A stretch of 64,000 bases of DNA from an uncultured SAR86 cluster bacterium (GTDB taxonomy: Bacteria > Pseudomonadota > Gammaproteobacteria > Magnimaribacterales > AG-339-G14). Shown piece after piece: positions 2,266 to 60,257 of this stretch. The stretch's first letter is position 1. Each line of letters begins with the position of its first letter. Position numbers and translations under genes: made by a program. The stretch covers positions 258,813 through 322,812 of the forward strand of contig CABZIF010000001.1 of the NCBI GenBank assembly GCA_902525735.1, read 5' to 3'. The notes under the pieces were generated by a model that was given only the letters and a program-made list of their open reading frames with translations, ran no database searches and was not told where the DNA came from.

Positions 2266-2274
2266 TTTTAAAAT

Positions 2275-3318: not shown

Positions 3319-3380
3319 GATAAACCTATTGACGGAATTTAAAGAAAATTATCTGAATAATATTATAATTCAATATCAGT

Positions 3381-4376: not shown

Positions 4377-4377
4377 A

Positions 4378-4923: not shown

Positions 4924-4927
4924 ACTT

Positions 4928-7352: not shown

Positions 7353-7378
7353 ATCTGAAGTTAATAAAGTTTGAAATT

Positions 7379-9954: not shown

Positions 9955-9984
9955 TAATGCAGTATAGCGAATCTATTTAAAAAT

Positions 9985-10878
9985 ATGACTACCAGAAAGT
10001 TAAATATTATTCCTATTACCTTAACCTGTATTGGAGGCTGTTTAATTGGCTTAGCTCCAATTTTTGTAAGGTTTAGTGAAATAGGACCTTCATTCACAGG
10101 TTTTTATAGGTTTTTATTTGCAACAATTTTAATTTTTTTCTATGGAATTTTTACAAATAAAATTAAAGTTTTAACCTTAAAAGAGTTATTAGTCATAAGT
10201 ATTCCAGGATTATGCTTTGGCACAGATATTGCTTTGTGGCACTCATCTATAGTTTTTACTTCAATTGCTCATGCAACATTATTTGTTAATACGGCTCCTC
10301 TTTATGTTTGCATACTTGGGTTTTTAATATTTAAGGATAAATTAAACAACCTTTTTTTAATTTCCTTATTAATTAGTTTGATGGGTGTTTATGTTTTAGT
10401 AAGTAACAACCCTAGTTTCAGTGGATTATATTTTTCTTTTGGTGATTTGTTAGCTTTATTAGCTGCATTTTTTTATGCAGGTTATTTATTATCTGTAAAT
10501 AAGCTTTCAAACAGATTCAACACATTTAATTTAATATTTTATTCTTCACTTTTTGCGTGCATTCCTTTCGGAATAGCATCACTTTATGAGCTGGATAATC
10601 CAATTCCTTATTCAGTATTTGGTTGGTTTAATTTCTTAGGCCAAGCCATTTTTGTTCAGATTTTAGGACAAGGATTAGTGATCTATGGTTTATCAAAAAT
10701 TAGACCGCAACTTTCATCATTATTACTATTGTTTCAACCTATTACAGCAACTATTCTGGGAGCTTATTTTTTTTCAGAGATATTATTATTTGGACAACTC
10801 ATAGGTGTTATTATTCTGTTAATTGGTATTTACTTTGCCGGTTTGAGTGAGAGATTGAGAGAGATTAATGAAAAGTGA
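9985..10878 (+). CDS. EamA/DMT-family transporter
   Basis: 297 aa with about 10 hydrophobic helices in two repeated halves, typical of EamA. Confidence 0.78.
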   Translation: MTTRKLNIIPITLTCIGGCLIGLAPIFVRFSEIGPSFTGFYRFLFATILIFFYGIFTNKIKVLTLKELLVISIPGLCFGTDIALWHSSIVFTSIAHATLFVNTAPLYVCILGFLIFKDKLNNLFLISLLISLMGVYVLVSNNPSFSGLYFSFGDLLALLAAFFYAGYLLSVNKLSNRFNTFNLIFYSSLFACIPFGIASLYELDNPIPYSVFGWFNFLGQAIFVQILGQGLVIYGLSKIRPQLSSLLLLFQPITATILGAYFFSEILLFGQLIGVIILLIGIYFAGLSERLREINEK

Positions 10879-46358: not shown

Positions 46359-47033
46359 ATGAGACAGGTAATTTTAGATACAGAAACAACAGGATTAGAC
46401 CTTCAATCAGGGAATAGAATAATAGAAATTGGTTGCGTTGAAATCATTGACAGAAAATTTACCGGAAGAGAATTCCATACTTTTCTAAATCCTGAACGGG
46501 CTGTGGAACCAGGTGCTTTTAAAGTGCATGGGCGTTCAAATGATTTTCTCTCTGACAAACCAATCTTTAAAGATATTTACGAGGATTTTCTTTCCTTTAT
46601 CAAAGGCGCAGAGTTGCTTATTCACAACGCAGATTTTGATATTAGTTTTTTAAACAATGAACTTAAATTATCAAATCTAGAGATTACGCTTGAAGATTAT
46701 GCTTTTAACGTTGTTGATACGCTGAGTATGGCTAGACAATTACATCCTGGCCAACGAAATAGCTTAGATGTTCTAACTGACAGATATAATATCAAAGGCT
46801 ACGATCGAAGCTATCATGGAGCTCTCCTAGATTCAAAAATACTAGGAGAAGTTTATTTATCTATGACTGGTGGTCAGACAAAACTGGATTTCAATGAAGC
46901 CATAGAAAAAAAAGAATTATCTTTAAAAGAAAATTTTATTAATAATTCAGTTTCACTTGCAAAAGTTTCGGTTTCAGCCGAAGAAGAAAAAAATCATCAA
47001 GAATATTTAGATAAAATAAAAATAGAAAATTGA
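46359..47033 (+). CDS. dnaQ: DNA polymerase III epsilon subunit (proofreading exonuclease)
   Basis: 224 aa. Exo motifs 'ILDTETTGL', 'HNADFDISFL' and 'HGALLDSKILGEVY'. Confidence 0.93.
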   Translation: MRQVILDTETTGLDLQSGNRIIEIGCVEIIDRKFTGREFHTFLNPERAVEPGAFKVHGRSNDFLSDKPIFKDIYEDFLSFIKGAELLIHNADFDISFLNNELKLSNLEITLEDYAFNVVDTLSMARQLHPGQRNSLDVLTDRYNIKGYDRSYHGALLDSKILGEVYLSMTGGQTKLDFNEAIEKKELSLKENFINNSVSLAKVSVSAEEEKNHQEYLDKIKIEN

Positions 47034-48406
47034 AACAAGAAATAACAAGGTTTGCACCAAGCCCAACCGGACACTTACATTTGGGTGGCGCAAGAACAGC
47101 TTTATTTTCATGGTTATTTGCTAAAAAAAATAAAGGCAAATTTTTATTAAGATTTGAGGACACTGATAAAGAAAGGTCTAAAAAAGAATATGAACAATCA
47201 ATTATTTCTAGTTTGGCTTGGCTTGGTATAAAGCCTGATGAAAATCCTATTTTTCAAAGTAAGAATATTGAATTACATCGCACAACAGCGCTAAGCCTTC
47301 TCGAATCAGGAAATGCTTATTCATGTGATTGTTCGCCCGAGCAATTAAACGAGATGAGAAAAAAGCAAATAGAACAAAAAATGCAACCAAGATACGATGG
47401 TCTCAACAGAGATAAAAATCTTCCGCATAAAGATGGAAATGTCATTAGATTTAAAATGCCTATTCAAGGAAAAACTTCCTTTCAAGATAAAATTTTAGGA
47501 ACTATTTCTGTTAATAATAAAGAATTAGATGACTTTATTATTCTTAGAGGAGATGGAAGTCCAACTTATAATTTTTCTGCGGCAATCGATGATCAAGAAA
47601 TGAAAATAACAACTGTTATTAGAGGAGATGACCATATCACGAACACTCTGAAACAAATTAATATATTTAAATCTTTAGAACAGCCCATTCCAAATTATGC
47701 TCATTTACCTATGGTGTTATCAAATACAGGAAAAAGACTTTCAAAAAGAGATGGAGCTGTAGATCTTTTGGAATATAAAAAATTAGGATATTTAAAGGAA
47801 GCCTTAATAAATTATTTAGTTAAATTAGGTTGGACATATTCAAATCAAGAAATTTTTTCTAAAGAAGAATTATTGAGCTTGTTTACATTGGAGGCAGTAA
47901 ATTCTTCACCCGCAAAATTTTCTGAAGAATTAATAACTTTTTACAACAATCACTATATCAATTCAATACAAGTAGAGGATCTTTATCAGTTGATTATTAA
48001 AGAGTGCGACGTTCCTTATGAAATTGACTCTAATATTCACTACTTAGAAATCTTGAATCTTATAAGAGAAGGCTCCAAAACTTTATTAGATCTAATTAAT
48101 CAAATGCAGTTTTTTTACGAAGTTCCACAATACGAAGAAAGACATAAAGAATCTGTTCAGGCAAACATTGAAGTAATTTCTGTCTTTAAAGAAAACATTA
48201 ATGCGCTCGATTTTAGTGATTTAAAAATTTTGGAAAATAATCTAAAAGAATTTTTATCTTCGAACGATTTAAAATTTCCTCAACTAGGCAAACCCTTAAG
48301 ATTAATTTTAGCTGGAAGAGAAAATGCTCCATCTATTTCTCAATTATTATTTTTCTTAGGCTATGAAGAATCGTTAAACAGAATTAACTTATTTCTAACC
48401 AAATAA
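47030..48406 (+). CDS. gltX: Glutamate--tRNA ligase
   Basis: 458 aa with a TTG start. Motifs '[18 protein letters not shown]' (HIGH) and 'RLSKRDG' (KMSKS). Confidence 0.93.
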
Positions 48407-48419
48407 CGGTAAACTACCT

Positions 48420-48605
48420 TTGATGATTGATAAAAAACTTTTAGATATTTTGGTCTGTCCTGTTTCAAAAGACAATCTCATTCAGATTGGCGACGAGCTG
48501 ATCTCCAAGAAAGGAATGCTAGCCTTTCCTGTAAGAGACGGTATACCAGTCATGCTTGAAAACGAAGCAAGAAAACTTAAACCCGAAGATATTAAAGATC
48601 TCTAG
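48420..48605 (+). CDS. Trm112/YcaR-family small protein
   Basis: About 60 aa. '[14 protein letters not shown]...[11 protein letters not shown]'. The start is probably the ATG at 48423. Confidence 0.8.
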
Positions 48606-49894
48606 TCTTCTGTTTGCGCTAAATCTCTCTTTCCTTGAGCACTCGCCATACTTGCATGATTTAGAATATTCCTTCCCATAGAAGAAGACTGCTTTAAAGA
48701 AAATTCTCTATATATTTTAGCTCTAGCGTGATGCATTTGATCGTTATTATTATCTGCATGAAAAGCAGTTTCGATTAATTGAGCTGCAACTTTTGTATTG
48801 CCTTTATCAAGGTATTCCAAAGCTTTTAAAATAATATTATCTATACCGCTTGAAAGCTCGACCCAAGCCAAAGCTTCTTCTTTTCTGGGGGCTGGAAGAA
48901 GTCTATCGTATTCCCCATCCCACCATCCTCCGTATCTTCTCCAAATCATTCTTATTAAAAACTGAGGGTCATCGTAGATTGGCGTTAACCAAGGTAACTC
49001 CATTAAATCATTTGGAATCTCAACTTCATGTAAAACCTGATTGAGACTTTTGCCTTGATTCATAAGTTTTAAAGTTTGATCTTCAATAGTTCTTAGAAAT
49101 TTTGAGGTTGTTTCTAAAGCTTTTTTAATTCTTTTTTTACCTAGAATAGGAAAACCATGACCAGGTAAAAAAATCTCACAGTCTAATTTCAGCATCTCAT
49201 CTAGGGCATCTGCCCAATCAGAAATATATCTTTGTACTTTTTGTGGATTTCCTCCATTCGGCACAGCCCAAATAAAAAGATCACCTGGTGCAATTAACTT
49301 TTCTTCTGGAACATGTATCCATGTGTGGTCATCTGTTTCTCCTCGAGCATGATAAAGATTGAATGTTAAATCTCCACATTTAAAAGATATATTATGTTTG
49401 TAAGTTACATCTGGAAATCTATATTCGGTGGGCCATTTAAAATGTTCAACATCAATTGCAAATTGACGCCTATTGATGGCAGTATTCCAATCATTAGTTT
49501 TAATATATCTATTAAAATGATCAGGCATTAATTCATGACCATAAACAATTGGTTTTGAGATACCCATTTTTTTATTTTCTTCATCAAAGTGTTTTACCGC
49601 AAATATATGATCAACATGATGATGAGTAAAAATAGCTGCCTTTACCGAAGTATCTGGACGCCACTTTTTAATTTCAGCATAAGTTGTCTCTATATCAAGT
49701 TGACTACCTGCATCAATCATTACTAAACCATCTCCAGTATCTAAAGTGTAATGACCAGCTATACCTTTTATACCTAGGATATTATTTTTAATTTCGGTCG
49801 AGCCAGAATAAAACATGTGGACAGGATGATGTTCAAATTGAAGATCAATTTCGCCATTCCAAGCCAATTCTGCAAGTTCAAGTAAATCTTTCAT
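48602..49894 (-). CDS. MBL-fold hydrolase, alkyl/aryl-sulfatase-like (no SCP2 tail)
   Basis: 430 aa. Metallo-beta-lactamase motif '[10 protein letters not shown]', followed by a helical region resembling the alkyl-sulfatase dimerisation domain. Confidence 0.7.
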
Positions 49895-49964
49895 TTCTTC
49901 TCCATTTCAATTCCTTTTAATTCTAATCCATATTTGATTAGAATGATTCTAGAGAGGGGGATAT

Positions 49965-51089
49965 ATGAGTACAATTAAACCTTTAGATGGAATAAAAGTT
50001 ATTGAAATTTCAACTATTATTACTGCGTCTTTATCAGCGATGATGCTTTCCGATCAAGGAGCTGAGGTAATAAAAATTGAACAAACTGGATTTGGAGATC
50101 CTTTAAGATACTTAGGCACTCAAAAAGGAGGGATTTCAGCTATCTTTGCGAATACAAACAGAGGGAAAAAATCTGTTGAGTTAGATTTAAAAACTGAATC
50201 TGATCTAGAACGAGCAAAAAAATTGATTAGTGAGGCCGACGTACTTATTAATAATTTTAGACCTGGCGTTATGGATTCGCTTGGACTTGGAAAAGACGAT
50301 TGTAAAACCTTAAATAAAAATTTAATTTATGTGGCAATAACAGGTTTTGGTAAAGAGGGTCTTTATGCCAATGCACCAGCTTATGATCACGTAGTTCAGG
50401 CAATGTCAGGTTCAACTGCTATTCAAGCTGACGAAGATAAACCTAAATATATAAAAACTTTATTATGCGATAAAATCACTGCCTATACCGCTACTCAGTC
50501 TATATGTTCAGCTTTGTTGAAAAGAGAAAGAACTGGTGAGGCGGCATGTATTGATCTTTCAATGCTTGATTCAGCAATGTTTTTCTTTTGGCCAGACGGC
50601 ATGATGAATCAAACCCTTCTGGACGAAGATGTAGAAATATTGGCACCTTTGACGTCAAGTTACACTATGTACGAATGCAAGGACGGCGCAATATCTATTG
50701 CAGCTTTATTGGATAAACATTGGCATGGTATTTTTAGAGCAATAGATAAACCTGAACTTGTTGAAGATTCAAAATTTAGTAATACGGCTGAAAGAAGTAA
50801 AAATGTTCATGAGTTGTATGAATACCTTACTCTATTCAAAAACTATACAGTGGATGATATGTTTAAGAGATTATCTGAGAACGATGTGCCATGTTCAAAA
50901 AACTTAACTTTAGAAGAAGTTATTACCAATCCGCAAGTTACAGACAACAAACTTGTTAAGGAAAAAGAAACAACACATCAAGGCAAGCTGCGAATGATAA
51001 GATATCCTGCATTATTCGATGATGAAAAATACATTAACGATAAACCTGCGCCAAAACTTGGCGAAGATAATGAAATCTTATTAAAATAA
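49965..51089 (+). CDS. Family III CoA-transferase (CaiB/BaiF)
   Basis: 374 aa. 'IKVIEISTIITASLSAMMLSDQGAEVIKIE' and 'NNFRPGVMDSLGLG'. Confidence 0.85.
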   Translation: MSTIKPLDGIKVIEISTIITASLSAMMLSDQGAEVIKIEQTGFGDPLRYLGTQKGGISAIFANTNRGKKSVELDLKTESDLERAKKLISEADVLINNFRPGVMDSLGLGKDDCKTLNKNLIYVAITGFGKEGLYANAPAYDHVVQAMSGSTAIQADEDKPKYIKTLLCDKITAYTATQSICSALLKRERTGEAACIDLSMLDSAMFFFWPDGMMNQTLLDEDVEILAPLTSSYTMYECKDGAISIAALLDKHWHGIFRAIDKPELVEDSKFSNTAERSKNVHELYEYLTLFKNYTVDDMFKRLSENDVPCSKNLTLEEVITNPQVTDNKLVKEKETTHQGKLRMIRYPALFDDEKYINDKPAPKLGEDNEILLK

Positions 51090-51093
51090 AATT

Positions 51094-51924
51094 ATGAAAA
51101 TCAAAGTTCCAAATAATAAAGCTCAACTTGGCGTAGTAATAAGTGATCTAAATTTGAGTGGAGAGTTCTCAGATGATCTAATAGCAGAGATTAGAAAATC
51201 ATGGACTGACTATGGAGTTGCAATTTTTCCAGATCAAAAACTTACGCATGAAAATTTTGAAAAGTTTTCTTTGTTATTTGGTAATTTTGGTGATGATCCA
51301 TATTTAAAGTCTCTCGATGATAGACCCAATATTGTTGAAGTAAAAAGGGCAGCTAATGAAAAAGCTCCTCCTTTTGGGGGTTCTTGGCATTCTGATTGGT
51401 CCTTTCAAAAGACTCCTCCTTCTGCCACTTTACTGCATTCAAAAATAGTACCACCGCAAGGTGGAGACACATTGTTCGCAAATACCCAGTTAGCTTATGA
51501 AGAATTAGATCAAGAAACTAAGGATAAAATTGAAAATTTGGAAGTAATCCATAGTGCAGGCTTACCTTACGCAGACGATGGATTTTATGCAACAGAAAAA
51601 GTGGAGAGGGCAATGGATATATTGCCATCAAAAAAAGCGAAAGAAACCCAATTACATCCCCTAGTAAAAACTCATGCAGAAACAAAGAGAAAATGTCTAT
51701 TTATAAACCCAGTTTATACAGTAGCCATTAACAATTTCTCAGAAGAGGAATCCTTTTTATTATTATCTTCTCTTTATGAGCATATGACTCAAGAAAAATA
51801 TGTTTATCGCCATAAATGGTCAAAAGATATGCTTTTAATGTGGGATAACAGAACTGTTGTTCACGCTGCTGACGGAGGTTATGACGGTTATGAAAGGTTA
51901 ATGCACAGAATAACAGTTAATTAA
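51094..51924 (+). CDS. TauD/TfdA-family Fe(II)/2-oxoglutarate dioxygenase
   Basis: 276 aa. 'WHSDWSF' (HxD), 'GGDTLFAN' and 'WDNRTVVH'. Confidence 0.85.
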   Translation: MKIKVPNNKAQLGVVISDLNLSGEFSDDLIAEIRKSWTDYGVAIFPDQKLTHENFEKFSLLFGNFGDDPYLKSLDDRPNIVEVKRAANEKAPPFGGSWHSDWSFQKTPPSATLLHSKIVPPQGGDTLFANTQLAYEELDQETKDKIENLEVIHSAGLPYADDGFYATEKVERAMDILPSKKAKETQLHPLVKTHAETKRKCLFINPVYTVAINNFSEEESFLLLSSLYEHMTQEKYVYRHKWSKDMLLMWDNRTVVHAADGGYDGYERLMHRITVN

Positions 51925-52359
51925 CTACAATTCCGAAAGATATTTATCTAATCTATCTTTATTAGTTACAAAGGAGTTTTTCAGTTGATTGGCTTGAGCT
52001 CTAACTTTTTCCAAATTATTTGAATTGCCTACTTGAATCACTCCGATCATAGCCATCATTAAATGAGGCGTACACTGGTAAACATAAACACCTTCTGTAT
52101 TAAGTGTAACGCTTATATCCTGACTCATTGCACCCATCCAAGTGTCACCGCCTTCAGGAATCATATTGCCTATCGATTCAGAATTATGGGCCATATCGAC
52201 AGATTTAAAGTGAACAGTGTCACCCTTTGATATTTTTAGGACAGGAGGGTCAAAAACCATCACACCGCTTGGTCCTTGGTTTAGCATTCTTACTTCATAA
52301 TCAGCAGAAAAATAGAAGTTGGAAAAAATAAACAAAAATAAATAACTTAAAAATTTCAT
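51925..52359 (-). CDS. Pseudoazurin-type blue copper protein
   Basis: 144 aa with a signal peptide. Cu ligand context 'YVYQCTPHLMMAMIGVIQV' (C-x-P-H-x3-M) and an upstream His. Confidence 0.85.
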   Translation of the reverse strand: MKFLSYLFLFIFSNFYFSADYEVRMLNQGPSGVMVFDPPVLKISKGDTVHFKSVDMAHNSESIGNMIPEGGDTWMGAMSQDISVTLNTEGVYVYQCTPHLMMAMIGVIQVGNSNNLEKVRAQANQLKNSFVTNKDRLDKYLSEL

Positions 52360-52525
52360 TAAAGAATTTTACATTTTTAAAATACTCAAATCTTAAAAAA
52401 TGAATAAATTATCTTTAAAGTTCTATCCAAATAACAAACTTAAATGATCTACAAATAAAGAATTTATCATTTAAAAGAAAATATGATTGAATTACATAAA
52501 TTCATTAGCAAAAAGGAGAGTAAAT

Positions 52526-52933
52526 ATGAATTTCTTAAAAGTAGTAACATTAATTTTGGTAACTTTTTCAGTAAGTAGTGCTTTTTCACAAAATGTGGGA
52601 TCGACAACAGTTCCAGCAGAGGCTTGGTTTTGTGAAATTAAAGAAGGCTATACGATGGACGATATTAGAGAAGTTTCAAAAGGTGTAGAAGCGTTTTCAA
52701 AAAAAACAGGTATGAAGGGATCACAATTTATATTTACAACTTTTATGGGAGAAATGAATCCTAATGCTTTTGTTTTAATGACAGTTTGGCCAAATTTTGA
52801 AATGATGGGACAAGGTTTTCAAAATTTTTTCACCGAAGGAACAGGTGATGATACTTTTGCAAAGTGGAATGAGTCTACAAACTGCATGCAGAGAAATCTT
52901 TTAACGGTAGAAAATACTTGGACTATAGAATAA
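52526..52933 (+). CDS. Hypothetical secreted protein
   Basis: Start moved to 'MNFLKVVTLILVTFSVSSAFSQ', directly after the RBS AAAGGAG. No recognisable family. Confidence 0.6.
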   Translation: MNFLKVVTLILVTFSVSSAFSQNVGSTTVPAEAWFCEIKEGYTMDDIREVSKGVEAFSKKTGMKGSQFIFTTFMGEMNPNAFVLMTVWPNFEMMGQGFQNFFTEGTGDDTFAKWNESTNCMQRNLLTVENTWTIE

Positions 52934-52951
52934 TTTTAAAAGGAGAAAAAA

Positions 52952-54130
52952 ATGGGTAATGCTTATATTGTTGGAGCGGTAAGGACTCCGGGTGGAAAAA
53001 AAGATGGAAAGCTTAAAAACTGGCATCCTTCAGATTTGGGAGCTTTAGTTTTAGATGAGCTAGTCGAAAGAACTGGCGCGAAAGGAGAAATGATTGATGA
53101 TGTAATTTTTGGTTGTGTTAGTCAATCAGGAGCGCAAGCAGGCAATGTCGCTAGAAATGCTGTGTTAAGTTCAAAACTTCCAGAATCAGTGCCAGGAACT
53201 TCTGTGGATAGACAGTGTGGTTCTTCGCAACAAGCAATTCATTTTGCTGCCCAAGCTGTGATGTCTGAAACACAAGATATTGTTATTGCTGGTGGTGTAG
53301 AAGTTATGAGTCAAGTTCCTATTGGCTCTAATATTATTGATAGTTTTAAAGAAGGACATGGCCAGCCATTTAACGGCAAAGGCATGATGGAAAGATATCC
53401 TGGAGTGCAATTCAGTCAGTTCGCAGGTGCCGAGATGATGGCAAAAAGATGGAACTTCTCACGCGAAGATTTAGATGCTTTTGCATTTGCAAGTCATTCG
53501 AAAGCTATAAATGCAACCGAAGCTGGTTACTTTGATAAAGAGATAGTCCCAGTAGAAGGAGATTTGCCCTCTGGTGAAAAGGAAATGGTTTCTATAGATG
53601 AAGGTATTAGATTTGATGCTTCTTTAGAAAGTTTATCAGGACTTAAAACTTTATCCGATGATGGTGTTTTAACTGCAGGTAGTTCAAGTCAAATTTGTGA
53701 TGGTGCGGCAGCAATAATGATTGTCAATGATTCTGGTTTAGAGAAATTAGGACTTAAACCAAGAGCAAAAATTATTTCATTGGCGCTTGCTGGAGATGAC
53801 CCAGTTATTATGCTGACTGGTCCAATTCCAGCATCTAAGACTGTGTTAGAAAAAGCTGACCTTTCGATAAATGATATTGATATTTATGAAGTAAACGAAG
53901 CATTTGCGCCAGTACCTTTAGCTTGGGCGCATGAGCTTAAAGCTGATAAAGAAAAACTTAATGTCAATGGCGGAGCAATGGCTTTAGGACATCCATTAGG
54001 TGGCACAGGAGCCAAGTTAATGACTACTTTGTTACATGAGTTAGAAAGAAGAGAGGGTAAGTATGGTCTCCAAGCTATCTGTGAAGGTGGCGGAACAGCT
54101 AATGCAATGATTATAGAAAGATTGAATTAA
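52952..54130 (+). CDS. Acetyl-CoA C-acyltransferase (thiolase)
   Basis: 392 aa. Motifs 'VDRQCGSSQQAI' (Cys), 'NGGAMALGHPLGGTG' and 'CEGGGTANA'. Confidence 0.93.
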   Translation: MGNAYIVGAVRTPGGKKDGKLKNWHPSDLGALVLDELVERTGAKGEMIDDVIFGCVSQSGAQAGNVARNAVLSSKLPESVPGTSVDRQCGSSQQAIHFAAQAVMSETQDIVIAGGVEVMSQVPIGSNIIDSFKEGHGQPFNGKGMMERYPGVQFSQFAGAEMMAKRWNFSREDLDAFAFASHSKAINATEAGYFDKEIVPVEGDLPSGEKEMVSIDEGIRFDASLESLSGLKTLSDDGVLTAGSSSQICDGAAAIMIVNDSGLEKLGLKPRAKIISLALAGDDPVIMLTGPIPASKTVLEKADLSINDIDIYEVNEAFAPVPLAWAHELKADKEKLNVNGGAMALGHPLGGTGAKLMTTLLHELERREGKYGLQAICEGGGTANAMIIERLN

Positions 54131-54304
54131 ATGGAAAACAAACACTGGTGGGAAAAAATACCAGATGGTGGTGTTTATGAAGATGCTAATTCTGGCATAT
54201 ACTTTTTTAAAGAAGATGGAAAATTAAAAACATCTTATGAATTCCATATCGGCGCAGGCGGAGATCCAGAAGTATTTCAAGCCTGGAGTAAGGCAAAGAG
54301 CTGA
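54131..54304 (+). CDS. Small hypothetical protein (57 aa), not in ORF track
   Basis: The ATG follows the thiolase stop with no gap. Hand translation gives MENKHWWEKIPDGGVYEDANSGIYFFKEDGKLKTSYEFHIGAGGDPEVFQAWSKAKS*. An uninterrupted 57-codon frame is notable in AT-rich DNA. Confidence 0.45.
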   Translation: MENKHWWEKIPDGGVYEDANSGIYFFKEDGKLKTSYEFHIGAGGDPEVFQAWSKAKS

Positions 54305-54309
54305 TTTTA

Positions 54310-54382
<73 letters not shown>

Positions 54383-54389
54383 CAAGATT

Positions 54390-54548
54390 TTAATAAACTA
54401 AAAATATTATTAACAACAGTGCAGAGATTAAAGATGCAGGGAATAAATACTTTAAAGTTTTAAAATTTAGTTCATCATCATTTTTAAATAAATTTATAAA
54501 AAGAGCTATCAGAATTGTGCCACCAACAAAATAAACTAATGCAGTCAT
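54390..54548 (-). CDS. Small two-TM hypothetical protein (52 aa), not in ORF track
   Basis: Hand translation gives MTALVYFVGGTILIALFINLFKNDDELNFKTLKYLFPASLISALLLIIFLVY*. It starts 8 nt after the stop of the 490-aa gene and ends 8 nt from tRNA-Ala. It has two clear hydrophobic helices. Confidence 0.4.
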   Translation of the reverse strand: MTALVYFVGGTILIALFINLFKNDDELNFKTLKYLFPASLISALLLIIFLVY

Positions 54549-54556
54549 TGGTTTTC

Positions 54557-56029
54557 TTATGCTTGAGTAAGCATCTTGGCTCTTTCTGATAATGCTGTAG
54601 CTTTATTAGAAAGCGAAGAAAGTAATGCCGTTTTATCATTGAGCTCTTTTTCTATTTTTTCTTCAACTATAATGGCCTCTTCTTCTTTTTCACTTATAGC
54701 ATCGAATTTGTCTTGAAAATCTGATAATTCAATAATATCTATATTTAATTCTCCTTTCTCAAATTGTTTGTTTAAAGCATTAATTGATTCCTTTAAATGT
54801 TCTTCTAAGATTGTTGAAAAAGTTTTATGTATAGCTAATTCATTAAGAAGCTTTTCTCTAAGAAGATTTTCTTTTTTTTGTTTTCTAAACAATAAGTAAA
54901 TCCCCAAAGATAAAAATGGTAGACCCAGAGCTAATAATGAGCGATCTTCAAGTCCCGTAATTACCCAACCTCCTCCAAAAAAGATTGCTAAGCCATTGCC
55001 CCAACCTAAACCTGTTATTTTACCGGGCACATTCTTATTTAATTTAGCCAAGGTGTCTTCTTTGTAAGCAAAATTAATTAACTCAAATTTATTTTTTTTT
55101 GAGTTAAAATGAATATCTGCATGTTTACCGTTAAATAAATTTTCAATAAAACTTTTATCCTTGTAGCTTGAAATTAATTTTGAACTGTAAGCTTCTTCGA
55201 CTTTTATTTGCTTAAAGCCAGTTTGTTCATTAATCATTTGTCTTGCAAATTCATCTTGATATTTTAATTTTTCATAAAGTTTTTTATTCTCCCAGCTAGT
55301 ACCAATTTTTTTTTCTTCATCAGATAAACTTTCTGCAATTTCTTCAATTTTTTTAATTAGTTCTTTTTGAGTTTTAATTTTAAATTCTGCATAAATCATA
55401 TCTGAAACTTCTTTCTCTCTTTTGGATTCATTTCTCTTTGTTTCTAAGTCCTTTTTAGATTCTTCTAATTTATCGAAAAGTTCTTTTAAAGGAATGTTGG
55501 AACTTACTTTTTCATAAAAAGAATTAGCGCTCTTAGATTTAATCTCATCGAAAGACGTTCTCAAAGGAGGAAAAATTTCCGATTGTTTTTTTTCATACTT
55601 TTCTTTATCAATTTGAATACTTTTAGTTATTTCACTTGCTTTATCAAACTGAGATTTGATATCAGGAATTGCTGTATCTTTTAAATATTCTATGTCTGCC
55701 AAACAAAGTTCACATTCTTTTAGTAAAGCGTTTTTTTCATAATACAGAGCTTCTTTTTCGCGAGTGCCAATAGATTTTTCACCAGAACAATCTTCGCACA
55801 TCCAAACTGTTCTATAGGTTGTGTGTGTTCTCTTTCGAGAAGTTAAAACAGATCTTTTTAAAGCTTTTTGAGAAGTTTCAAAACCAAGAATTGAGCCAAT
55901 TACTTCTTTTCCTCCAACAGTATTTCGTGACGTCGCTTTAATAGCCTTTTTGGCCCTAACCATAAAATTAGCAGGGGCTTGGGCGCCACATATGTTGCAA
56001 GTAGTTAATCTAAACTTCTTTTTTGCCAT
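54557..56029 (-). CDS. Hypothetical zinc-ribbon / coiled-coil / TM-hairpin protein
   Basis: 490 aa. CxxC dyads at C11/C14 and C78/C81 (plus C106/C109). Long Lys/Glu-rich heptad-like regions. Gly-rich hydrophobic hairpin 'ITGLGWGNGLAIFFGGGWVITGL-EDR-SLLALGLPFLSLGIYLLF' (about aa 338-382), followed by a C-terminal coiled coil. I recognise no family. Confidence 0.7.
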   Translation of the reverse strand: MAKKKFRLTTCNICGAQAPANFMVRAKKAIKATSRNTVGGKEVIGSILGFETSQKALKRSVLTSRKRTHTTYRTVWMCEDCSGEKSIGTREKEALYYEKNALLKECELCLADIEYLKDTAIPDIKSQFDKASEITKSIQIDKEKYEKKQSEIFPPLRTSFDEIKSKSANSFYEKVSSNIPLKELFDKLEESKKDLETKRNESKREKEVSDMIYAEFKIKTQKELIKKIEEIAESLSDEEKKIGTSWENKKLYEKLKYQDEFARQMINEQTGFKQIKVEEAYSSKLISSYKDKSFIENLFNGKHADIHFNSKKNKFELINFAYKEDTLAKLNKNVPGKITGLGWGNGLAIFFGGGWVITGLEDRSLLALGLPFLSLGIYLLFRKQKKENLLREKLLNELAIHKTFSTILEEHLKESINALNKQFEKGELNIDIIELSDFQDKFDAISEKEEEAIIVEEKIEKELNDKTALLSSLSNKATALSERAKMLTQA

Positions 56030-56067
56030 CAGAACTTATATTATAGAAAGAAAATTTATTAATCAAA

Positions 56068-58227
56068 ATGACTGGAATAGTTGATGAGGCTCTAAAACAA
56101 GATGGGGATGATTCATTAAATATAGGAAACTATATTAAAGCCTTATTAAGTTTTATTGAAAATACCGCAACACCGATGACTATCGGTATTCAAGGAGAAT
56201 GGGGCAGTGGAAAAACTTCATTGCTTAATCAAATTTGGAATGGCCTTGAAAAAAGAGACTCTGAAAACCAAGACGTAAGATATAAGCAAATATGGATAAA
56301 TGCTTGGGAACATTCTTTACTGTGTTCACCAGAAGAGTGTTTGATAAAGATAATCAATGAAATAATTTCTGAACTTGTAGCTGCAGATACTCAAAAAACA
56401 AAAGCTGAAAAATTAACCAGTGGCATTAATAAATTAGCAAAAGGTGCAGCAAGAATTGGTGGGGCCGTCGCACTTGGAATGGCAGGAAAAGATATTGCTG
56501 ATGATATATTTGATCAACATGAAAACTCAATTAAGCAGTTACGACAAGATTTAAAAAAACTTACAAATGAAATTAAAGGGCTTGAAACCAATCCCTTTGA
56601 TAAATTTATAATCTACGTTGACGATCTGGATAGAATTGACCCACCTGATGCAGTAAGAATATTAGAATTATTAAAAAATATATTCAATCTGGAAGATTGT
56701 ATATTTTTATTGGCCATTGACTATCAAGTAGTAGTAAAAGGTCTTGAAGCGAAATTTGGAAAACAAACGCCTGAAAATGAATGGGAGTTTCGAGCCTATT
56801 TCGATAAAATTATTCAACTTCCTTTTAAAATGCCGATGTCAAATTACGACATAGGAAATTATGTACTTGAATTACTATCGACCATCGATTTTTATTCAGG
56901 CGATGAAGAATTGGATGAAGAATTAATTAAAAACTTTGTAGAGCTTTCTATTACAGGGAACCCTAGATCTATAAAAAGATTAATAAATTCCTTGTCTCTG
57001 ATTAAACTTTTTAATTCATTATCTGACGATTTAGACTCAAATTTTTTAAAAGATAAAAATGGCGCGACCATAATGTTTGCAATGGTCTGTTTACAAACTG
57101 CGCATCCAGATATTTATGATTTGCTTTCTCAAAATCCTGATTTTCAAAAATGGGATGATGAATTAGCCTATAAAGTTACTCAAGGAAAAGAAAAACTAGA
57201 AGAAAATTATGAATTGAATTACAACCAAGCCACTAAACAAGGTGAAGATTTTGATGAAGAATGGGAAAAAATACTTTTTAAAGTTTGTTATTTGAATCCA
57301 AGATCACGTGCTAAGGCAACAAATATATCTAGATTTTTAACTATTTTAATCGATGAATTCAAAGCAGAAAAAAATTCTGAGGAGTTAACAAATCTAATTT
57401 CTAATGCTCTTGGACAATCAGCTATTACAAGCGTGACAACAACTGAAAATCCAAATATAAGACCTGCTAAAGGTTCTTATAAACCTTTTTATAATGAAGG
57501 TTTTGATGACTGGCTTGACCGTAAAATAGAAGATATTTCTATTAGAGCCAAGAAATCTAAAGAAGAATTTTCTATACCGGTTGAAGTCTTTGAGAAACTA
57601 AAATCTTTTGTCGATATTTTAAAAAATGATTTTGGAGCGTGCGATGCTAATGAAAATCCAGATAACGATCTGACATTGCATTACTCTGGAAACTTGACAT
57701 TAAAATACAAAGGAAAAAAGACTTTTAGTTTTTGGGTTGGAACGTCTAATCCAGAAAATAAAAAACGATCTAGAAAAGGTGTTGCTGGAGGAGATTTAAA
57801 TGACCCTCAAAGCTGGGTAATGAGTTCTGAAATAAGTAAACATCCTAAATTTGAAAATAAGCCTCTATTCATAGAAGAGTTAAATATTAAATTTAATCAA
57901 TACAAGCCAGGATATAGAGTGAAAAGTATAAATCCAAGAGAAATAGTCTTACCTGGCGCAGGTGCGCCAGACATTGCTCATATGGGAGTTATTTCAATTT
58001 TAGATTATCCTCATGATTATTTTAAGTTTTTAGTTGAGACTAGTATAGATGCTAGAAAAAATCATAAAGACGAGTTGTTTAATAGGTCTAAAATGAAAGA
58101 AATTGAGGATATTTTTTTTAAGGCTGATGAAGATTCAGCTGAATTTAAAAAGGCGCATGATTTCATTCAAAATTGGAATGCAGATGAAAATGTTTTTACT
58201 ATTAAGGATTATAAAAAAGGGGTATAG
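56068..58227 (+). CDS. KAP-family P-loop NTPase with uncharacterised C-terminal half
   Basis: 719 aa. Walker A 'GIQGEWGSGKTSLLN', then the KAP-typical 'INAWEHS' and Walker B 'FIIYVDDLDRIDP'. No convincing TM insertion in the P-loop domain. About 270 C-terminal residues have no recognisable motif. Confidence 0.82.
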   Translation: MTGIVDEALKQDGDDSLNIGNYIKALLSFIENTATPMTIGIQGEWGSGKTSLLNQIWNGLEKRDSENQDVRYKQIWINAWEHSLLCSPEECLIKIINEIISELVAADTQKTKAEKLTSGINKLAKGAARIGGAVALGMAGKDIADDIFDQHENSIKQLRQDLKKLTNEIKGLETNPFDKFIIYVDDLDRIDPPDAVRILELLKNIFNLEDCIFLLAIDYQVVVKGLEAKFGKQTPENEWEFRAYFDKIIQLPFKMPMSNYDIGNYVLELLSTIDFYSGDEELDEELIKNFVELSITGNPRSIKRLINSLSLIKLFNSLSDDLDSNFLKDKNGATIMFAMVCLQTAHPDIYDLLSQNPDFQKWDDELAYKVTQGKEKLEENYELNYNQATKQGEDFDEEWEKILFKVCYLNPRSRAKATNISRFLTILIDEFKAEKNSEELTNLISNALGQSAITSVTTTENPNIRPAKGSYKPFYNEGFDDWLDRKIEDISIRAKKSKEEFSIPVEVFEKLKSFVDILKNDFGACDANENPDNDLTLHYSGNLTLKYKGKKTFSFWVGTSNPENKKRSRKGVAGGDLNDPQSWVMSSEISKHPKFENKPLFIEELNIKFNQYKPGYRVKSINPREIVLPGAGAPDIAHMGVISILDYPHDYFKFLVETSIDARKNHKDELFNRSKMKEIEDIFFKADEDSAEFKKAHDFIQNWNADENVFTIKDYKKGV

Positions 58228-58290
58228 CTCATTTGGATGAACACTTGCAAACTACGCAAGAAGTTCAAGGTTCGACCCTGCTTAACTCCA
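58219..58290 (+). pseudogene. Degenerate copy of tRNA-Ala (non-foldable)
   Basis: GGGGTATAGCTCATTTGGATGAACACTTGCAAACTACGCAAGAAGTTCAAGGTTCGACCCTGCTTAACTCCA aligns end-to-end with tRNA-Ala at 54310. The GGGG/TATAGCTCA, the anticodon stem CTTGC/GCAAG, GGTTC and CTCCA are all identical. The anticodon loop is AAACTAC (no U33) and the T and acceptor stems are broken. It overlaps the KAP stop codon. Confidence 0.6.
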
Positions 58291-58354
58291 TATGTTTATT
58301 GTAAAAGCCTTATTTTTTTTATAAATAAGTAGTCGTTAATACAAAAAAATTGAT

Positions 58355-60121
58355 ATGAATGATCAGTTAACAATAACCTTAATTTTGTTTGTTCTTTTAT
58401 TTTTCTTTGTATGGGGAAGATGGAGATATGACGCAATAGCTTTAATATTTCTGTCTTTATTTGTTTTATTTGGGTTTATTGAACCAAATGATGCTTTTTC
58501 TGGATTTGCTCATCCTGCAGTTGTAACTGTCGCATTGGTTTTATTGATTAGTAAAGGTTTAGAAAAATCAGGATTTATTCTAATTATTGAAAATAAAATT
58601 CAAAAAATTGCTCAAAATCAAACTCAATTTATGATTGTTTTAACTCTTCTGGCTGCGGTGCTTTCATCGTTTATGAACAATATTGGCGCAATGGCTATGC
58701 TTCTTCCTATTACTTTGGGAATTTGTCAAAAAATGGCTTGGAATCCATCTAGGTTTTTGATGCCATTAGCCTTTGCTTCCATTTTAGGTGGAATGAATAC
58801 TAAAATTGGGACACCTCCAAACATAATCATCTCTGAATTTAGAAGTGAATATGCAGATCAATCTTTTAGTTTCTTCGATTTTTCTTTTATTGGATTGCCT
58901 TTAACTATTTTTGGAATTATTTTTATTTCATTTTTAGGATGGAGATTAATTGCTTTAAGACCAGTTAATTCCTTAGATAATCCATTAATTAAAATTGATG
59001 ATTATCTAACTGAAATGACTATCAAACCAAATAGTCCACTCATCGATATGAGGGCTCAAGATTTTAGAAGTAAACTAGATACAGATACAGCTGTAATTGG
59101 TCAGATAGACTCAACCGAAAAAAAAGTTGAGTTGCATGGAAATTTTAAACTCTACGAGGGACAAATCCTTATTCTAAAAATAAACCCTTCTTCTCTTGCA
59201 GACTTGCAACAAGAATATGGATTAGACGTAGATTCAGAAAACGAATTAACAAAAATAAAAGATTTAGGCAGTATCGAAGCAATAATTACACCAAAATCTA
59301 GACTTATCGGAAGAAAAAATAGTTATTTTAAAAGGCTTGTTGGCGGTGGTTTCTCTTTACTAGGTTTATGGAGAAGGGGATTAAAATATAGATTTAGATT
59401 GGCAAATGAAAAATTCAGATCAGGTGATGTTTTGTTGATAGCAAATAGAGGTAATAAAGATTCTATTGCGGAAAGATTGGAGCTGGCTGGATTGTTGCCT
59501 TTATGGCAAAGAGATTTTGATATTGTTAGAGATTCCTCAAAAGTATTATTTGCTTTTCTAGTATTTATTTTTTCTCTATTTCTGATTATTTTTAATTTTC
59601 TTCCAATTTTAGTGGCATTTTTATTGTGCGTAATTGCTTTTGTAGGTGGAAGGTTGTTAACAGGAGAAAGCGTTTATAGGCACATAGACTGGCCAGTTGT
59701 CACATTACTAGCTGCGATGATTCCAATAGGTAATACACTCACTGAGTATGAAATTACATCTGATTTTGCTTTGTTCCTCGCTAGCTATTCTCAATCTTTA
59801 GATTTTGTTTGGATGATAATTATAATCATGATTATAACAATGCTTCTTTCAGACGTTATTAATAACGCTGCTACAGCTGTAATAATGGGCCCGTTAGCTG
59901 CTTCATTAGCAGTTCAAATTAATCAGCCTGTAGAACCCTTTTTAATGGCAGTTGCAATTGGTGCAAGTTGTGCTTTTCTGTCTCCAATTGGGCATCAATG
60001 CAACACTCTAGTCATGGGACCGGGAAATTATAAATTCGGAGATTATTGGAAAATGGGGCTTCCCTTGGAGATATTAATTATTTTTGTAAGTGTTCCGTTA
60101 ATTGTTTTTTACTGGACTTGA
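58355..60121 (+). CDS. SLC13/DASS-family permease with central TrkA-C (RCK_C)-like domains
   Basis: 588 aa. Polytopic N- and C-terminal halves with 'GTPPN' and 'SPIGHQCN' hairpin motifs. They are separated by a soluble region of about 180 aa resembling two TrkA-C domains. Confidence 0.78.
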   Translation: MNDQLTITLILFVLLFFFVWGRWRYDAIALIFLSLFVLFGFIEPNDAFSGFAHPAVVTVALVLLISKGLEKSGFILIIENKIQKIAQNQTQFMIVLTLLAAVLSSFMNNIGAMAMLLPITLGICQKMAWNPSRFLMPLAFASILGGMNTKIGTPPNIIISEFRSEYADQSFSFFDFSFIGLPLTIFGIIFISFLGWRLIALRPVNSLDNPLIKIDDYLTEMTIKPNSPLIDMRAQDFRSKLDTDTAVIGQIDSTEKKVELHGNFKLYEGQILILKINPSSLADLQQEYGLDVDSENELTKIKDLGSIEAIITPKSRLIGRKNSYFKRLVGGGFSLLGLWRRGLKYRFRLANEKFRSGDVLLIANRGNKDSIAERLELAGLLPLWQRDFDIVRDSSKVLFAFLVFIFSLFLIIFNFLPILVAFLLCVIAFVGGRLLTGESVYRHIDWPVVTLLAAMIPIGNTLTEYEITSDFALFLASYSQSLDFVWMIIIIMIITMLLSDVINNAATAVIMGPLAASLAVQINQPVEPFLMAVAIGASCAFLSPIGHQCNTLVMGPGNYKFGDYWKMGLPLEILIIFVSVPLIVFYWT

Positions 60122-60257
60122 AGAGCATTTCTTGAATTCATTGTCTTCCTAAAGGAGTTAGCTTAATTGACATCTCTATTGACTCATCAGCTTCCAATTC
60201 ATCAAGCTTCTGTGAAAGTCAGGATTTCTATGCTCTGTAGCCTTTGGTGACGCTTAG

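What the first reader, a model, noticed from the sequence alone, without database searches (positions are those of the whole stretch)
56068..58227. KAP NTPase lacking the usual membrane insert and carrying a ~270-aa unassigned C-terminal domain
Walker A 'GEWGSGKTS' (about aa 43-51), 'NAWEHS' and Walker B 'IIYVDDLDR' (about aa 181-189) identify the KAP clade. Classical KAP NTPases have TM helices inserted in the P-loop domain. Between Walker A and B here I see only a weakly hydrophobic 'AARIGGAVALGMAG', not a real TM pair. Residues from about 450 to 719 (e.g. 'PGAGAPDIAHMGVISILDYPHDYFKFLVETS') match nothing I recognise and could be an effector or sensor domain.
Basis: partly seen in the sequence, partly recalled or inferred. 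Interest (0 to 1): 0.6.

Follow-up and report, generated by a model that had tools for sequence, protein, structure and literature searches.

The report
Soluble KAP NTPase with private C-terminal domain
This is an intact, membrane-helix-free KAP-family ATPase from a marine SAR86-type bacterium. It carries a fast-evolving C-terminal domain of about 245 residues found only in this protein family, and it is a strain-variable gene that most likely belongs to the recently recognised class of KAP-plus-unknown-domain antiphage proteins.

Summary
The "missing membrane insert" is not unusual: PifA, the founding bacterial KAP, also lacks TM helices. Residues 313-455 are a conserved helical extension. 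Residues 476-719 are a genuine extra alpha/beta domain (AF2 pLDDT 86) with no Pfam, PDB or viral-fold match. A profile search of 1.84 billion proteins finds it only as the C-terminus of KAP proteins. It diverges about 4x faster than the NTPase. The same ~462-aa core occurs across many phyla with at least 12 unrelated tails, including DUF4268. The gene is accessory: a ~92%-identical strain keeps only a Walker-A-broken 5' remnant. It is divergently paired with a conserved Zn-ribbon/coiled-coil/TM protein and flanked by tRNA-Ala. Sister clades form KAP-(Na-channel)-DUF2779 nuclease operons. The closest solved fold is RdrA of RADAR. Best reading (about 0.5): a soluble STAND-like conflict/defence switch, a new variant of the KAP-plus-unknown-domain class shown experimentally in 2026. 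Function is untested here.

The parts
56068..58227 (+). KAP-family NTPase gene, 719 aa, intact
   Evidence: ORF. Pfam KAP_NTPase E=2.3e-36. More than 4000 homologues, the top 120 all full length at 680-720 aa.
56128..57003 (+). KAP P-loop NTPase domain (aa 21-312)
   Evidence: Pfam alignment 21-312 to profile 3-289 of 293. Mean pairwise identity 0.77 across 121 family members.
56194..56220 (+). Walker A, GEWGSGKTS (aa 43-51)
   Evidence: Position. Invariant in the 28-sequence alignment.
56395..56580 (+). Helical hairpin between Walker A and B (aa 110-171), including the conserved Gly/Ala-rich segment 126-140. Not TM-grade.
   Evidence: Full-length AF2 model shows H110-147 and H155-171, with pLDDT <50 for aa 129-153. 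G126, R129, G137 and G140 are invariant. Hydropathy is below the TM threshold.
56608..56634 (+). Walker B, IIYVDDLDR (aa 181-189)
   Evidence: Position. Y183, D185, D186, L187, D188 and R189 are invariant.
57004..57432 (+). All-alpha extension of the KAP core (aa 313-455)
   Evidence: All-helical in the model with pLDDT mostly 80-90. BLASTP to the core reaches about aa 456-465 in all 87 loci from many phyla.
57433..57492 (+). Conserved but disordered linker (aa 456-475, ...SVTTTENPNIRPAKGSYKP)
   Evidence: pLDDT <50 for aa 457-470. Sequence is conserved within the family.
57493..58224 (+). Family-private C-terminal alpha/beta domain (aa 476-719): two helices, a ~7-stranded sheet, a three-helix bundle
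   Evidence: AF2 on alignment A1 gives pLDDT 86.2, pTM 0.85. No Pfam or PDB sequence hit. No Foldseek hit in PDB or BFVD, best E 0.07 and 0.1. The profile finds only 58 clusters among 1.84e9 representatives, always C-terminal in 636-711-aa proteins or in fragments. It diverges about 3.8x faster than the NTPase domain.
54557..56029 (-). Divergently transcribed conserved partner candidate, 490 aa: 4-Cys Zn-ribbon-like N-terminal domain, long coiled-coil-like region, TM hairpin (~aa 337-383), C-terminal helical region
   Evidence: No Pfam, PADLOC or NCBIfam hit. KD maximum 1.71 at aa 363-382. Homologue in the same divergent position in L004/5/6, L008, L009 and L090. The family has 123 clusters. 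The N-terminal 88 aa are ~95% identical, with C11, C14, C78 and C81 invariant.
56030..56067 (.). 38-nt divergent intergenic spacer between the partner gene and KAP
   Evidence: Coordinates. The relative L004 has a 47-nt spacer. The promoter scan was uninformative.
54310..54383 (+). tRNA-Ala(GGC) flanking the two-gene module
   Evidence: ARAGORN. The same tRNA lies 5 nt after the KAP stop in SAR86 locus L009 and next to the partner gene in L093.
56216..58320 (.). Strain-variable segment: the KAP body from inside Walker A to 93 nt past the stop. In ~92%-identical contigs L093/L094 it is replaced by 0.8 kb carrying a NaChBac-type Ion_trans gene.
   Evidence: blastn boundaries. Gene maps. The L093 62-aa ORF is a KAP 5' remnant, 37/49 identical and broken in Walker A.

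Best explanation
The gene encodes a soluble, catalytically competent KAP-family (STAND-like, ring-forming-type) NTPase. It is built from a conserved ~462-residue engine (P-loop domain plus helical domain), a flexible linker, and a fast-evolving lineage-restricted C-terminal alpha/beta domain. It is an accessory, strain-variable gene of an uncultured marine SAR86-type gammaproteobacterium. It most likely works as a nucleotide-dependent switch in a conflict or antiphage system. Inferred steps: the variable C-terminal domain provides specificity by binding a trigger or target. NTP binding and hydrolysis in the core then drive oligomerisation or a conformational change. The output is delivered through the C-terminal domain itself and/or through genes encoded alongside. 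In this clade that is the divergently transcribed Zn-ribbon/coiled-coil/TM protein. In sister clades it is a DUF2779 Cas4-like/3'-5' exonuclease and a NaChBac-type channel. Shown here: family membership, intact motifs, domain architecture, absence of TM segments, restriction and rapid divergence of the C-terminal domain, presence/absence polymorphism, and gene linkages. Inferred only: the defence role, which domain senses and which executes, and any physical interaction with the neighbour.
For: The KAP domain and intact, invariant Walker A/B and NPRSIKRLIN motifs are present. Best defence-library similarities are PifA (1.4e-33), PDC-S20 (6e-28) and QatA (6e-23), all over the N-terminal part only. 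The closest solved fold is RdrA, the heptameric ATPase of the RADAR antiphage system (Foldseek E=7e-7, ~530 columns), followed by NB-ARC, ORC/Cdc6 and BrxC (PMC9994260 abstract). Experimental precedent exists: KAP NTPases fused to C-terminal regions of unknown function protect against phage and need both Walker B and the C-terminal region (PMC13552941). Accessory behaviour: contigs ~92% identical in DNA retain the neighbour and only a broken 5' KAP remnant, and there are truncated or absent KAP genes next to neighbour homologues in L090 and L088. A tRNA-Ala flanks the module. Relatives sit beside WYL-RmuC-methylase-helicase genes and beside nucleases: DUF2779/Cas4-like in 15 loci and a GIY-YIG in 11. 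There is a divergence gradient of 0.77/0.61/0.42 mean identity for NTPase/helical/C-terminal regions. The C-terminal domain diverges ~3.8x faster among close pairs. The same core carries at least 12 BLAST-unlinked tails, including DUF4268. The divergent pairing with the 490-aa neighbour is kept in two different chromosomal contexts.
Against: There is no functional test. No complete known defence system is matched: PADLOC and NCBIfam hits are partial, and QatA scores 95 bits against a cutoff of 600. Immediate flanks in the window are metabolic or transport genes, with no integrase, no att-like repeat of the tRNA 3' end and no relatives on viral contigs. In a sister SAR86 clade, KAP-DUF2779 occupies a stable syntenic position near MazG, SIS and UvrD in several genomes, which looks more core-like than island-like. 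The core is unusually conserved across phyla, at 38-50% identity over ~460 aa. The neighbour persists without KAP in L093/L094, and KAP occurs without the neighbour in most clades, so the pairing is not obligate. The recurrent channel is a common marine NaChBac-type gene that stands alone in SAR11.
Confidence: 0.5

Rival explanations
1. It is a DNA-maintenance or repair factor rather than immunity. The KAP NTPase loads or regulates the DUF2779 Cas4-like/3'-5' exonuclease in sister clades, and other nucleic-acid enzymes here, with the Lys-rich C-terminal domain binding nucleic acid.
For: DUF2779 lies immediately downstream (5-49 nt, or overlapping via the channel gene) in nine SAR86 loci and within 10 kb in Alphaproteobacteria, Marinimicrobia, Bacteroidales and Flavobacterium. 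The sister-clade locus is syntenic next to MazG and UvrD. Another clade sits between PolA and RmuC. DUF2779 is widely distributed and quasi-essential in JCVI-syn3.0 (PMC13621843).
Against: The window has no DUF2779 gene in 64 kb. The gene is dispensable in a near-identical strain. Rapid C-terminal turnover and tail swapping are atypical for housekeeping repair factors. All characterised bacterial KAPs retrieved here are defence proteins.
Confidence: 0.15
2. It is a cytoplasmic regulator or assembly factor for membrane channels and transporters, a KAP that gets its membrane connection in trans. On this reading it is involved in ion homeostasis rather than defence.
For: Ion_trans genes occur in 21 of 87 KAP-anchored loci from several phyla. 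Of these, 20 of 21 are on the same strand (binomial p=2e-5) and 15 of 21 lie within 3 kb. L016 has an ATGA stop/start overlap, and L098/L099 have KAP->Ion_trans->DUF2779 operons. In the window and in a SAR116 locus the KAP gene is followed, on the same strand, by a 62.6%-identical SLC13/CitMHS permease. The conserved neighbour is a membrane protein.
Against: Many of the 21 loci are related Bacteroidales with a co-travelling MetA-like/Ion_trans/Peptidase_C15 trio, so there are few independent events. The channel occurs without KAP in SAR11. The permease stays in place when KAP is lost. No Ion_trans gene was found in the window.
Confidence: 0.15
3. It is a decaying selfish or orphan gene with no current function in this genome.
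For: KAP genes near neighbour homologues are truncated (367 aa in L090), absent (L088) or reduced to a remnant (L093/L094).
Against: Here the ORF is intact with every catalytic and family-invariant residue. Hundreds of full-length relatives share 45-99% identity. The C-terminal domain folds confidently and keeps invariant residues W482, D526, Y539, K551 and G630.
Confidence: 0.05

Closest known systems
[quoted passage not shown]
   Same: An N-terminal KAP NTPase is followed by a C-terminal region of a few hundred residues with no known domain or structural match. That class is experimentally antiphage and requires both Walker B and the C-terminal region.
   Different: EF_KAP is modelled with two TM helices, one N-terminal and one inside the KAP domain, whereas this protein has none. 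The C-terminal domain here is a different family confined to marine KAPs. There is no serine recombinase nearby. No phenotype has been tested.
PifA (F-plasmid T7 exclusion protein; KAP family founder)
   Same: It is a TM-less bacterial KAP NTPase of about 720 aa (PMC13001434). It is also the best PADLOC hit (E=1.4e-33) over aa 6-312.
   Different: Only positions 8-316 of the 720-position PifA profile align, and the C-terminal ~400 positions do not. This gene is chromosomal in SAR86, not plasmid-borne.
RdrA of the RADAR system (PDB 8hr8, 8hra, 8hrb, 8fnw)
   Same: It is the closest solved fold to the full-length model (Foldseek E=7e-7, prob 1.0, ~530 aligned columns). It is a ring-forming defence ATPase (PMC9994260 abstract).
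   Different: TM-scores are low (0.31-0.37) and identity is 12-14%. There is no sequence-level hit to any PDB chain even with a family profile. No RdrB-like deaminase is adjacent. The C-terminal domain has no counterpart.
QatA of QatABCD, and the PADLOC candidate PDC-S20
   Same: They share the KAP-type NTPase domain: QatA E=4e-27 (NCBIfam), PDC-S20 E=6e-28 covering aa 15-387.
   Different: QatA scores 95 bits against an equivalog cutoff of 600, in three fragments. There are no QatB, QatC or QatD neighbours. The PDC-S20 profiles (446-464 positions) end before the C-terminal domain.
STAND/NLR-like antiviral ATPases (Avs, NACHT, NB-ARC)
   Same: The logic is the same: a P-loop NTPase, a helical domain and a variable C-terminal module. 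There are sub-threshold Pfam hits to NACHT, NB-ARC and nSTAND3/5, and Foldseek hits to NRC NB-ARC domains.
   Different: All these Pfam hits fall below their curated cutoffs. The C-terminal module is a compact alpha/beta domain, not a repeat array. No N-terminal effector domain is present.

Membership tests
KAP P-loop NTPase family (Pfam PF07693) | Match to the family profile above the curated threshold, over the whole domain | tested here: met
   126 bits against a cutoff of 20, E=2.3e-36, aa 21-312 on profile 3-289 of 293.
KAP P-loop NTPase family (Pfam PF07693) | Intact Walker A (GxxGxGK[ST]) and Walker B (hhhhDD) | tested here: met
   GEWGSGKTS at 43-51 and IIYVDDLDR at 181-189. Both are invariant across 28 diverse relatives.
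KAP P-loop NTPase family (Pfam PF07693) | Two or four TM helices associated with the NTPase domain. This is a feature of eukaryotic and some bacterial members and is not required for membership. | tested here: not met
   No KD-19 window reaches 1.6; the maximum is 1.51 at aa 205-223. The Walker A-B interval is modelled as a helical hairpin. PifA also lacks TM helices (PMC13001434). No dedicated TM predictor was run.
KAP P-loop NTPase family (Pfam PF07693) | NTP hydrolysis | not testable with these tools
   Needs purified protein.
KAP NTPase + C-terminal region-of-unknown-function antiphage class (PMC13552941) | KAP NTPase domain followed by a sizeable C-terminal region lacking known domains or structural matches | tested here: met
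KAP NTPase + C-terminal region-of-unknown-function antiphage class (PMC13552941) | Protection against phage that depends on Walker B and on the C-terminal region | not testable with these tools
   Requires plaque assays. The only evidence here is context: strain polymorphism and nuclease or defence-like neighbours in relatives.
KAP NTPase + C-terminal region-of-unknown-function antiphage class (PMC13552941) | Genetic linkage to a small serine recombinase, the bait used to discover that class | tested here: not met
   The ORFs within 50-64 kb and the Pfam-labelled syntenic genes in L093/L094 include no recombinase.
PifA | Full-length similarity to the PifA profile | tested here: not met
   The PADLOC PifA hit covers profile positions 8-316 of 720 only.
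QatABCD (QatA) | QatA equivalog score and QatB/C/D neighbours | tested here: not met
   NCBIfam QatA scores 95 bits against a cutoff of 600. The neighbours are a Zn-ribbon/TM protein and an SLC13 permease.
RADAR (RdrA/RdrB) | RdrA-type ATPase encoded with an RdrB adenosine deaminase | tested here: not met
   Only fold-level similarity to RdrA. There is no PADLOC RdrA hit at E<=1 and no deaminase neighbour.
DUF4268 / DUF5655 C-terminal modules | Profile match of the C-terminal domain to these Pfam families | tested here: not met
   None of the 20 A1 members hit either family at E<=1. HHalign of A1 against the DUF4268-bearing tail clusters gives probability <1%. A single weak DUF5655 hit in L018 was not replicated in 9 related tails.

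The most novel reading that the evidence does not exclude
The ~462-residue KAP core defines a widespread, undescribed modular conflict system. A soluble KAP NTPase with an exchangeable C-terminal sensor domain acts in trans on membrane proteins and/or on a DUF2779 Cas4-like nuclease. The membrane proteins are a voltage-gated-type NaChBac channel in sister clades and the ultra-conserved Zn-ribbon/coiled-coil/TM protein here. The membrane coupling that classical KAPs have in cis would thus be supplied by separate genes. This would be the first defence module characterised for the uncultured SAR86 lineage and the first to use a voltage-gated-type channel as a partner.
Probability: 0.15. Interest if true: 0.75.

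Novelty: new variant of a known kind. Interest (0 to 1): 0.5.

Why it matters
SAR86 is one of the most abundant uncultured bacterial lineages of the surface ocean, and its immune repertoire is essentially uncharacterised. KAP NTPases were confirmed as antiphage proteins only recently, and their C-terminal regions remain mechanistic black boxes. This locus provides several usable leads. The first is a confidently folding C-terminal domain of ~245 residues with no detectable relative outside KAP proteins. The second is a natural presence/absence pair of near-identical strains. The third is a conserved candidate partner with an unusually constrained Zn-ribbon domain. The fourth is a cross-phylum view of one conserved KAP engine carrying at least a dozen interchangeable tails and recurrently linked to a DUF2779 nuclease and a sodium-channel-type gene. 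If the defence reading is right, it gives a tractable model for how KAP engines couple recognition to output. If it is wrong, the DUF2779 and channel linkages point to an unrecognised housekeeping role for a widespread NTPase.

Tried and rejected
1. PD-(D/E)xK reading of the C-terminal domain. The invariant residues are D526, Y539 and K551, but there is no acidic residue two positions before the Lys (the motif is KKKK[IT]) and no nuclease Pfam hit, so I rejected it.
2. DUF5655 lead. One sub-threshold hit (L018 tail, 20 bits against a cutoff of 24) covered the FKFAGG hairpin. It was not reproduced in 9 related tails or in 20 A1 members, so I treat it as unconfirmed.
3. Relation to DUF4268 tails. 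HHalign probability was <1%.
4. Integrase-type island at the tRNA. There is no second copy of the tRNA 3' end within 3 mismatches and no integrase among nearby ORFs.
5. Phage-borne origin. No relatives were found on IMG/VR contigs with the patterns used. The only hit is a PHROG of unknown function (phrog_8614, E=1e-24).
6. Promoter and terminator scan of 54300-58450. Counts were at shuffle expectation and uninformative.
7. Sequence searches of the PDB with the single protein, the C-terminal profile and the full-length profile all found nothing.
9. The original KAP paper (Aravind et al. 2004) is not held. Its content is cited only through PMC13001434 and PMC13552941. My recollection that RdrA is annotated as KAP-like could not be verified in PMC9994260 and is not used as evidence.
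10. The first divergence table came from sequences pre-selected for C-terminal diversity and was biased. I replaced it with the unselected 121-sequence analysis.
Full report
OBSERVATION. The ORF is real and sits exactly where stated: 56068..58227 on the + strand, ATG start, 719 aa. All quoted motifs are at the quoted positions: Walker A GEWGSGKTS 43-51, NAWEHS 78-83, Walker B IIYVDDLDR 181-189, AARIGGAVALGMAG 127-140 and the PGAGAP...VETS stretch 629-659. Pfam places aa 21-312 on positions 3-289 of the 293-position KAP_NTPase profile at E=2.3e-36, 126 bits against a cutoff of 20. Other P-loop families (AAA_16, AAA_22, NACHT, NB-ARC, nSTAND) score only below their curated thresholds. In an alignment of 28 diverse relatives, the Walker A and B motifs and an NPRSIKRLIN motif (298-307) are invariant. 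The protein therefore looks catalytically competent.

TM QUESTION. No 19-residue Kyte-Doolittle window reaches the usual ~1.6 threshold. The maximum is 1.51 at aa 205-223, the buried strand after Walker B, and nothing between Walker A and B ranks among the top windows. The full-length AlphaFold model (pLDDT 76.4) shows the Walker A-B interval as a helical hairpin, H110-147 and H155-171, with low confidence at 129-153. Among 120 relatives, 18 marginally exceed 1.6 (maximum 1.68). The peak window, the one position recorded, starts at about aa 329, which is a helix of the helical domain and not in the P-loop insert. The premise that TM inserts are 'usual' does not hold for bacteria. PMC13001434 states that PifA, the founding bacterial member, shares the KAP fold but lacks TM helices. 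This protein also matches the Pfam consensus end to end without a large gap.

DOMAIN ANATOMY. The protein has four parts.
- aa 1-312: an N-terminal helix plus the KAP NTPase domain.
- aa 313-455: an all-helical region, with pLDDT mostly 80-90.
- aa 456-475: a sequence-conserved but disordered linker.
- aa 476-719: a separate alpha/beta domain.

Modelled alone from a 20-sequence alignment (A1), the last domain is confident, with pLDDT 86.2 and pTM 0.85. It consists of two helices, a roughly seven-stranded sheet and a three-helix bundle.

FAMILY AND DISTRIBUTION. More than 4000 homologues exist, and the top 120 clusters are all 680-720 aa and align over 77-100% of the query, most over 97-100%. 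A scan of 185,579 species genomes gave 431 relatives. The best is an uncultured SAR86 genome at 71% identity over the full length, so the window most likely derives from a SAR86-type marine gammaproteobacterium. A core of ~462 residues is present in all 87 loci I held, at 38-82% identity. The taxa include SAR86, Woeseiaceae, Alphaproteobacteria, SAR116, Marinimicrobia, Campylobacterales, Chlorobium, Flavobacteriales and many Bacteroidales, with total lengths of 476-733 aa.

The tails after the core fall into at least 12 BLAST-unlinked clusters. The SAR86 tail is homologous to tails of marine alpha, gamma, Flavobacteriaceae and Marinimicrobia KAPs (HHalign 98%, E~1e-13, 185 columns). It shows no relation to the Bacteroidales tails or to tails that match DUF4268. 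A lone weak DUF5655 hit did not replicate.

Within the family, mean pairwise identity falls from 0.77 (NTPase) to 0.61 (helical) to 0.42 (C-terminal) over 7260 unselected pairs. Among pairs that are 90-99.5% identical in the NTPase, the C-terminal domain has diverged about 3.8 times as much. The extreme examples of 96% against 50% come from a subset chosen for C-terminal diversity and are illustrative only.

GENOMIC CONTEXT. There are five points.

(a) A 490-aa gene (54557..56029, - strand) lies 38 nt upstream, divergently oriented. It has no Pfam, PADLOC or NCBIfam hit. It has a TM-grade hairpin around aa 337-383 and belongs to a small family of 123 clusters. In that family the first 88 residues are ~95% identical while the rest is ~39% identical, with C11, C14, C78 and C81 invariant. 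All 117 long members have a TM-grade segment. A homologue occupies the same divergent position in every locus whose KAP core is >=74% identical (L004/5/6, L008, L009). This is true in two different chromosomal settings: thiolase/permease here and in L009, and PolA-DsbB/acid phosphatase-WYL-RmuC in L004/L090.

(b) tRNA-Ala(GGC) at 54310-54383 flanks the module, and the same tRNA follows the KAP stop by 5 nt in L009. There is no att-like repeat.

(c) Contigs L093/L094 are ~92% identical to the window from 46382 to 60122. Window 56216-58320 is replaced there by 0.8 kb carrying a 238-aa Ion_trans gene. Their 62-aa ORF is the KAP 5' end (37/49 identical) and breaks inside Walker A. KAP was therefore ancestral at this site and was lost in that strain. 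L090 has a 367-aa KAP fragment and L088 has only small ORFs next to neighbour homologues.

(d) In the next SAR86 clade (core 57-64% identical), the KAP gene is followed within 5-49 nt by a DUF2779 protein that also matches Cas4. The literature describes this as an uncharacterised fusion of a Cas4-like nuclease and a 3'-5' exonuclease. DUF2779 recurs within 10 kb in other phyla, for 15 dereplicated loci in total.

(e) Ion_trans genes occur in 21 of 87 KAP-anchored loci, with 20 of 21 on the same strand (p=2e-5) and 15 of 21 within 3 kb. L016 has an ATGA stop/start overlap. Sampling from the channel side recovered KAP->Ion_trans->DUF2779 operons in L098/L099 and a KAP->DUF2779 pair beside the channel in L095. 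In SAR11 the channel stands alone. Many of the 21 loci are related Bacteroidales with a co-travelling gene trio, so there are few independent events. The window itself has neither DUF2779 nor Ion_trans. No relatives were found on viral contigs.

STRUCTURAL NEIGHBOURS OF THE CORE. The full-length model's best PDB match is RdrA, the heptameric ATPase of the RADAR antiphage system (E=7e-7, ~530 columns, TM 0.31-0.37). It is followed by NB-ARC domains of plant NRC receptors, ORC/Cdc6 and BrxC. Sequence profiles reach no solved structure.

MECHANISM. Established here: a soluble KAP engine with intact motifs, a flexible linker, a private fast-evolving C-terminal domain, accessory gene behaviour, and a conserved but non-obligate divergent partner. 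Inferred, at about 0.5: it is a nucleotide-driven switch in a conflict or antiphage system. The variable C-terminal domain would confer specificity, and output would go through that domain and/or co-encoded proteins.

The inference rests on four things:
- The defence roles of the bacterial KAPs discussed in the papers I read: PifA, EF_KAP and three gut-metagenome KAP proteins.
- The RdrA-like fold.
- The strain polymorphism and decay.
- The nuclease-rich or defence-like neighbourhoods of relatives.

Rivals are a DNA-maintenance role with DUF2779 (0.15), a regulator of membrane channels or transporters (0.15), and a functionless decaying gene (0.05).

COMPARISON AND NOVELTY. It is a bona fide KAP family member. 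It is not PifA, because only 316 of 720 profile positions align. It is not QatA, which scores 95 bits against a cutoff of 600 and has no QatBCD partners. It is not RADAR, because no RdrB is present. It fits the architecture class of KAP NTPase plus a C-terminal region of unknown function, shown to be antiphage in PMC13552941. It differs from that class in being TM-less, in its C-terminal domain family, in its partner gene and in lacking a linked recombinase. I rate it a new variant of a known kind. Interest is moderate (0.5). The specific claim 'KAP without TM' is ordinary. The private domain, the natural knockout strain, the ultra-conserved partner domain and the cross-phylum KAP-DUF2779-channel linkage are useful, testable leads in an ecologically dominant uncultured lineage.

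Noticed in passing
window 54557-56029 (- strand): The 490-aa neighbour has an N-terminal 88-residue domain that is ~95% identical across 117 clusters, while the rest of the protein is only ~39% identical. It has four invariant Cys (C11, C14, C78, C81) and is very basic. No Pfam, PADLOC or NCBIfam family matches. Such extreme constraint suggests binding to a highly conserved partner or nucleic acid.
   Followed up: partly
L016:10001-14281; L098:2885-7194; L099:1018-5327: Sister SAR86 clades carry a tight KAP -> NaChBac-type Ion_trans (236-238 aa) -> DUF2779 (Cas4-like + 3'-5' exonuclease) operon with overlapping stop and start codons. In L001/L007 the same site has KAP -> DUF2779 -> a 156-aa gene without the channel.
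   Followed up: partly
L025, L040, L041, L046-L086 (21 of 87 loci): Ion_trans (PF00520) genes, mostly ~570 aa with an unknown C-terminal half, recur on the same strand near this KAP core in Bacteroidales, Campylobacterales, Chlorobium and Chryseobacterium. They are often accompanied by a Peptidase_C15 gene and a MetA-pathway-like outer-membrane gene.
   Followed up: partly
L026:2119-5834 vs window 56068-60121: In a SAR116 (alphaproteobacterial) contig, a KAP-core gene with a different, DUF4268-cluster tail is followed after 20 nt by an SLC13/CitMHS permease 62.6% identical to the permease downstream of KAP in the window. This is either block transfer or a recurrent adjacency.
   Followed up: no
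window 54135-54308: A 174-nt stretch between the thiolase stop and tRNA-Ala contains a ~57-codon ORF (MENKHWWEKIPDGG...). It is absent from the otherwise ~92%-identical contigs L093/L094, where the thiolase gene abuts the tRNA.
   Followed up: no
window 2001-10000: GC content drops to 0.24-0.29, with a minimum of 0.237 at 4001-6000, against 0.30-0.37 over the rest of the window. This could be another variable or foreign segment.
   Followed up: no
L004:1-5013; L005:551-3673; L090:8828-12449: Relatives of the KAP/neighbour pair sit beside a WYL-WCX regulator, RmuC, a DNA methylase and SNF2 or PIF1-type helicases. Several of these genes are fragmented in L004 and L088, which looks like a decaying defence-island-like region in SAR86.
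   Followed up: no
L001:12906-13712 and 10 further loci (L012, L018, L020, L023, L026, L027, L055, L064, L073, L086): A LEM-3-like GIY-YIG nuclease gene recurs within a few kb of the KAP core in SAR86, Alphaproteobacteria and Bacteroidales.
   Followed up: no
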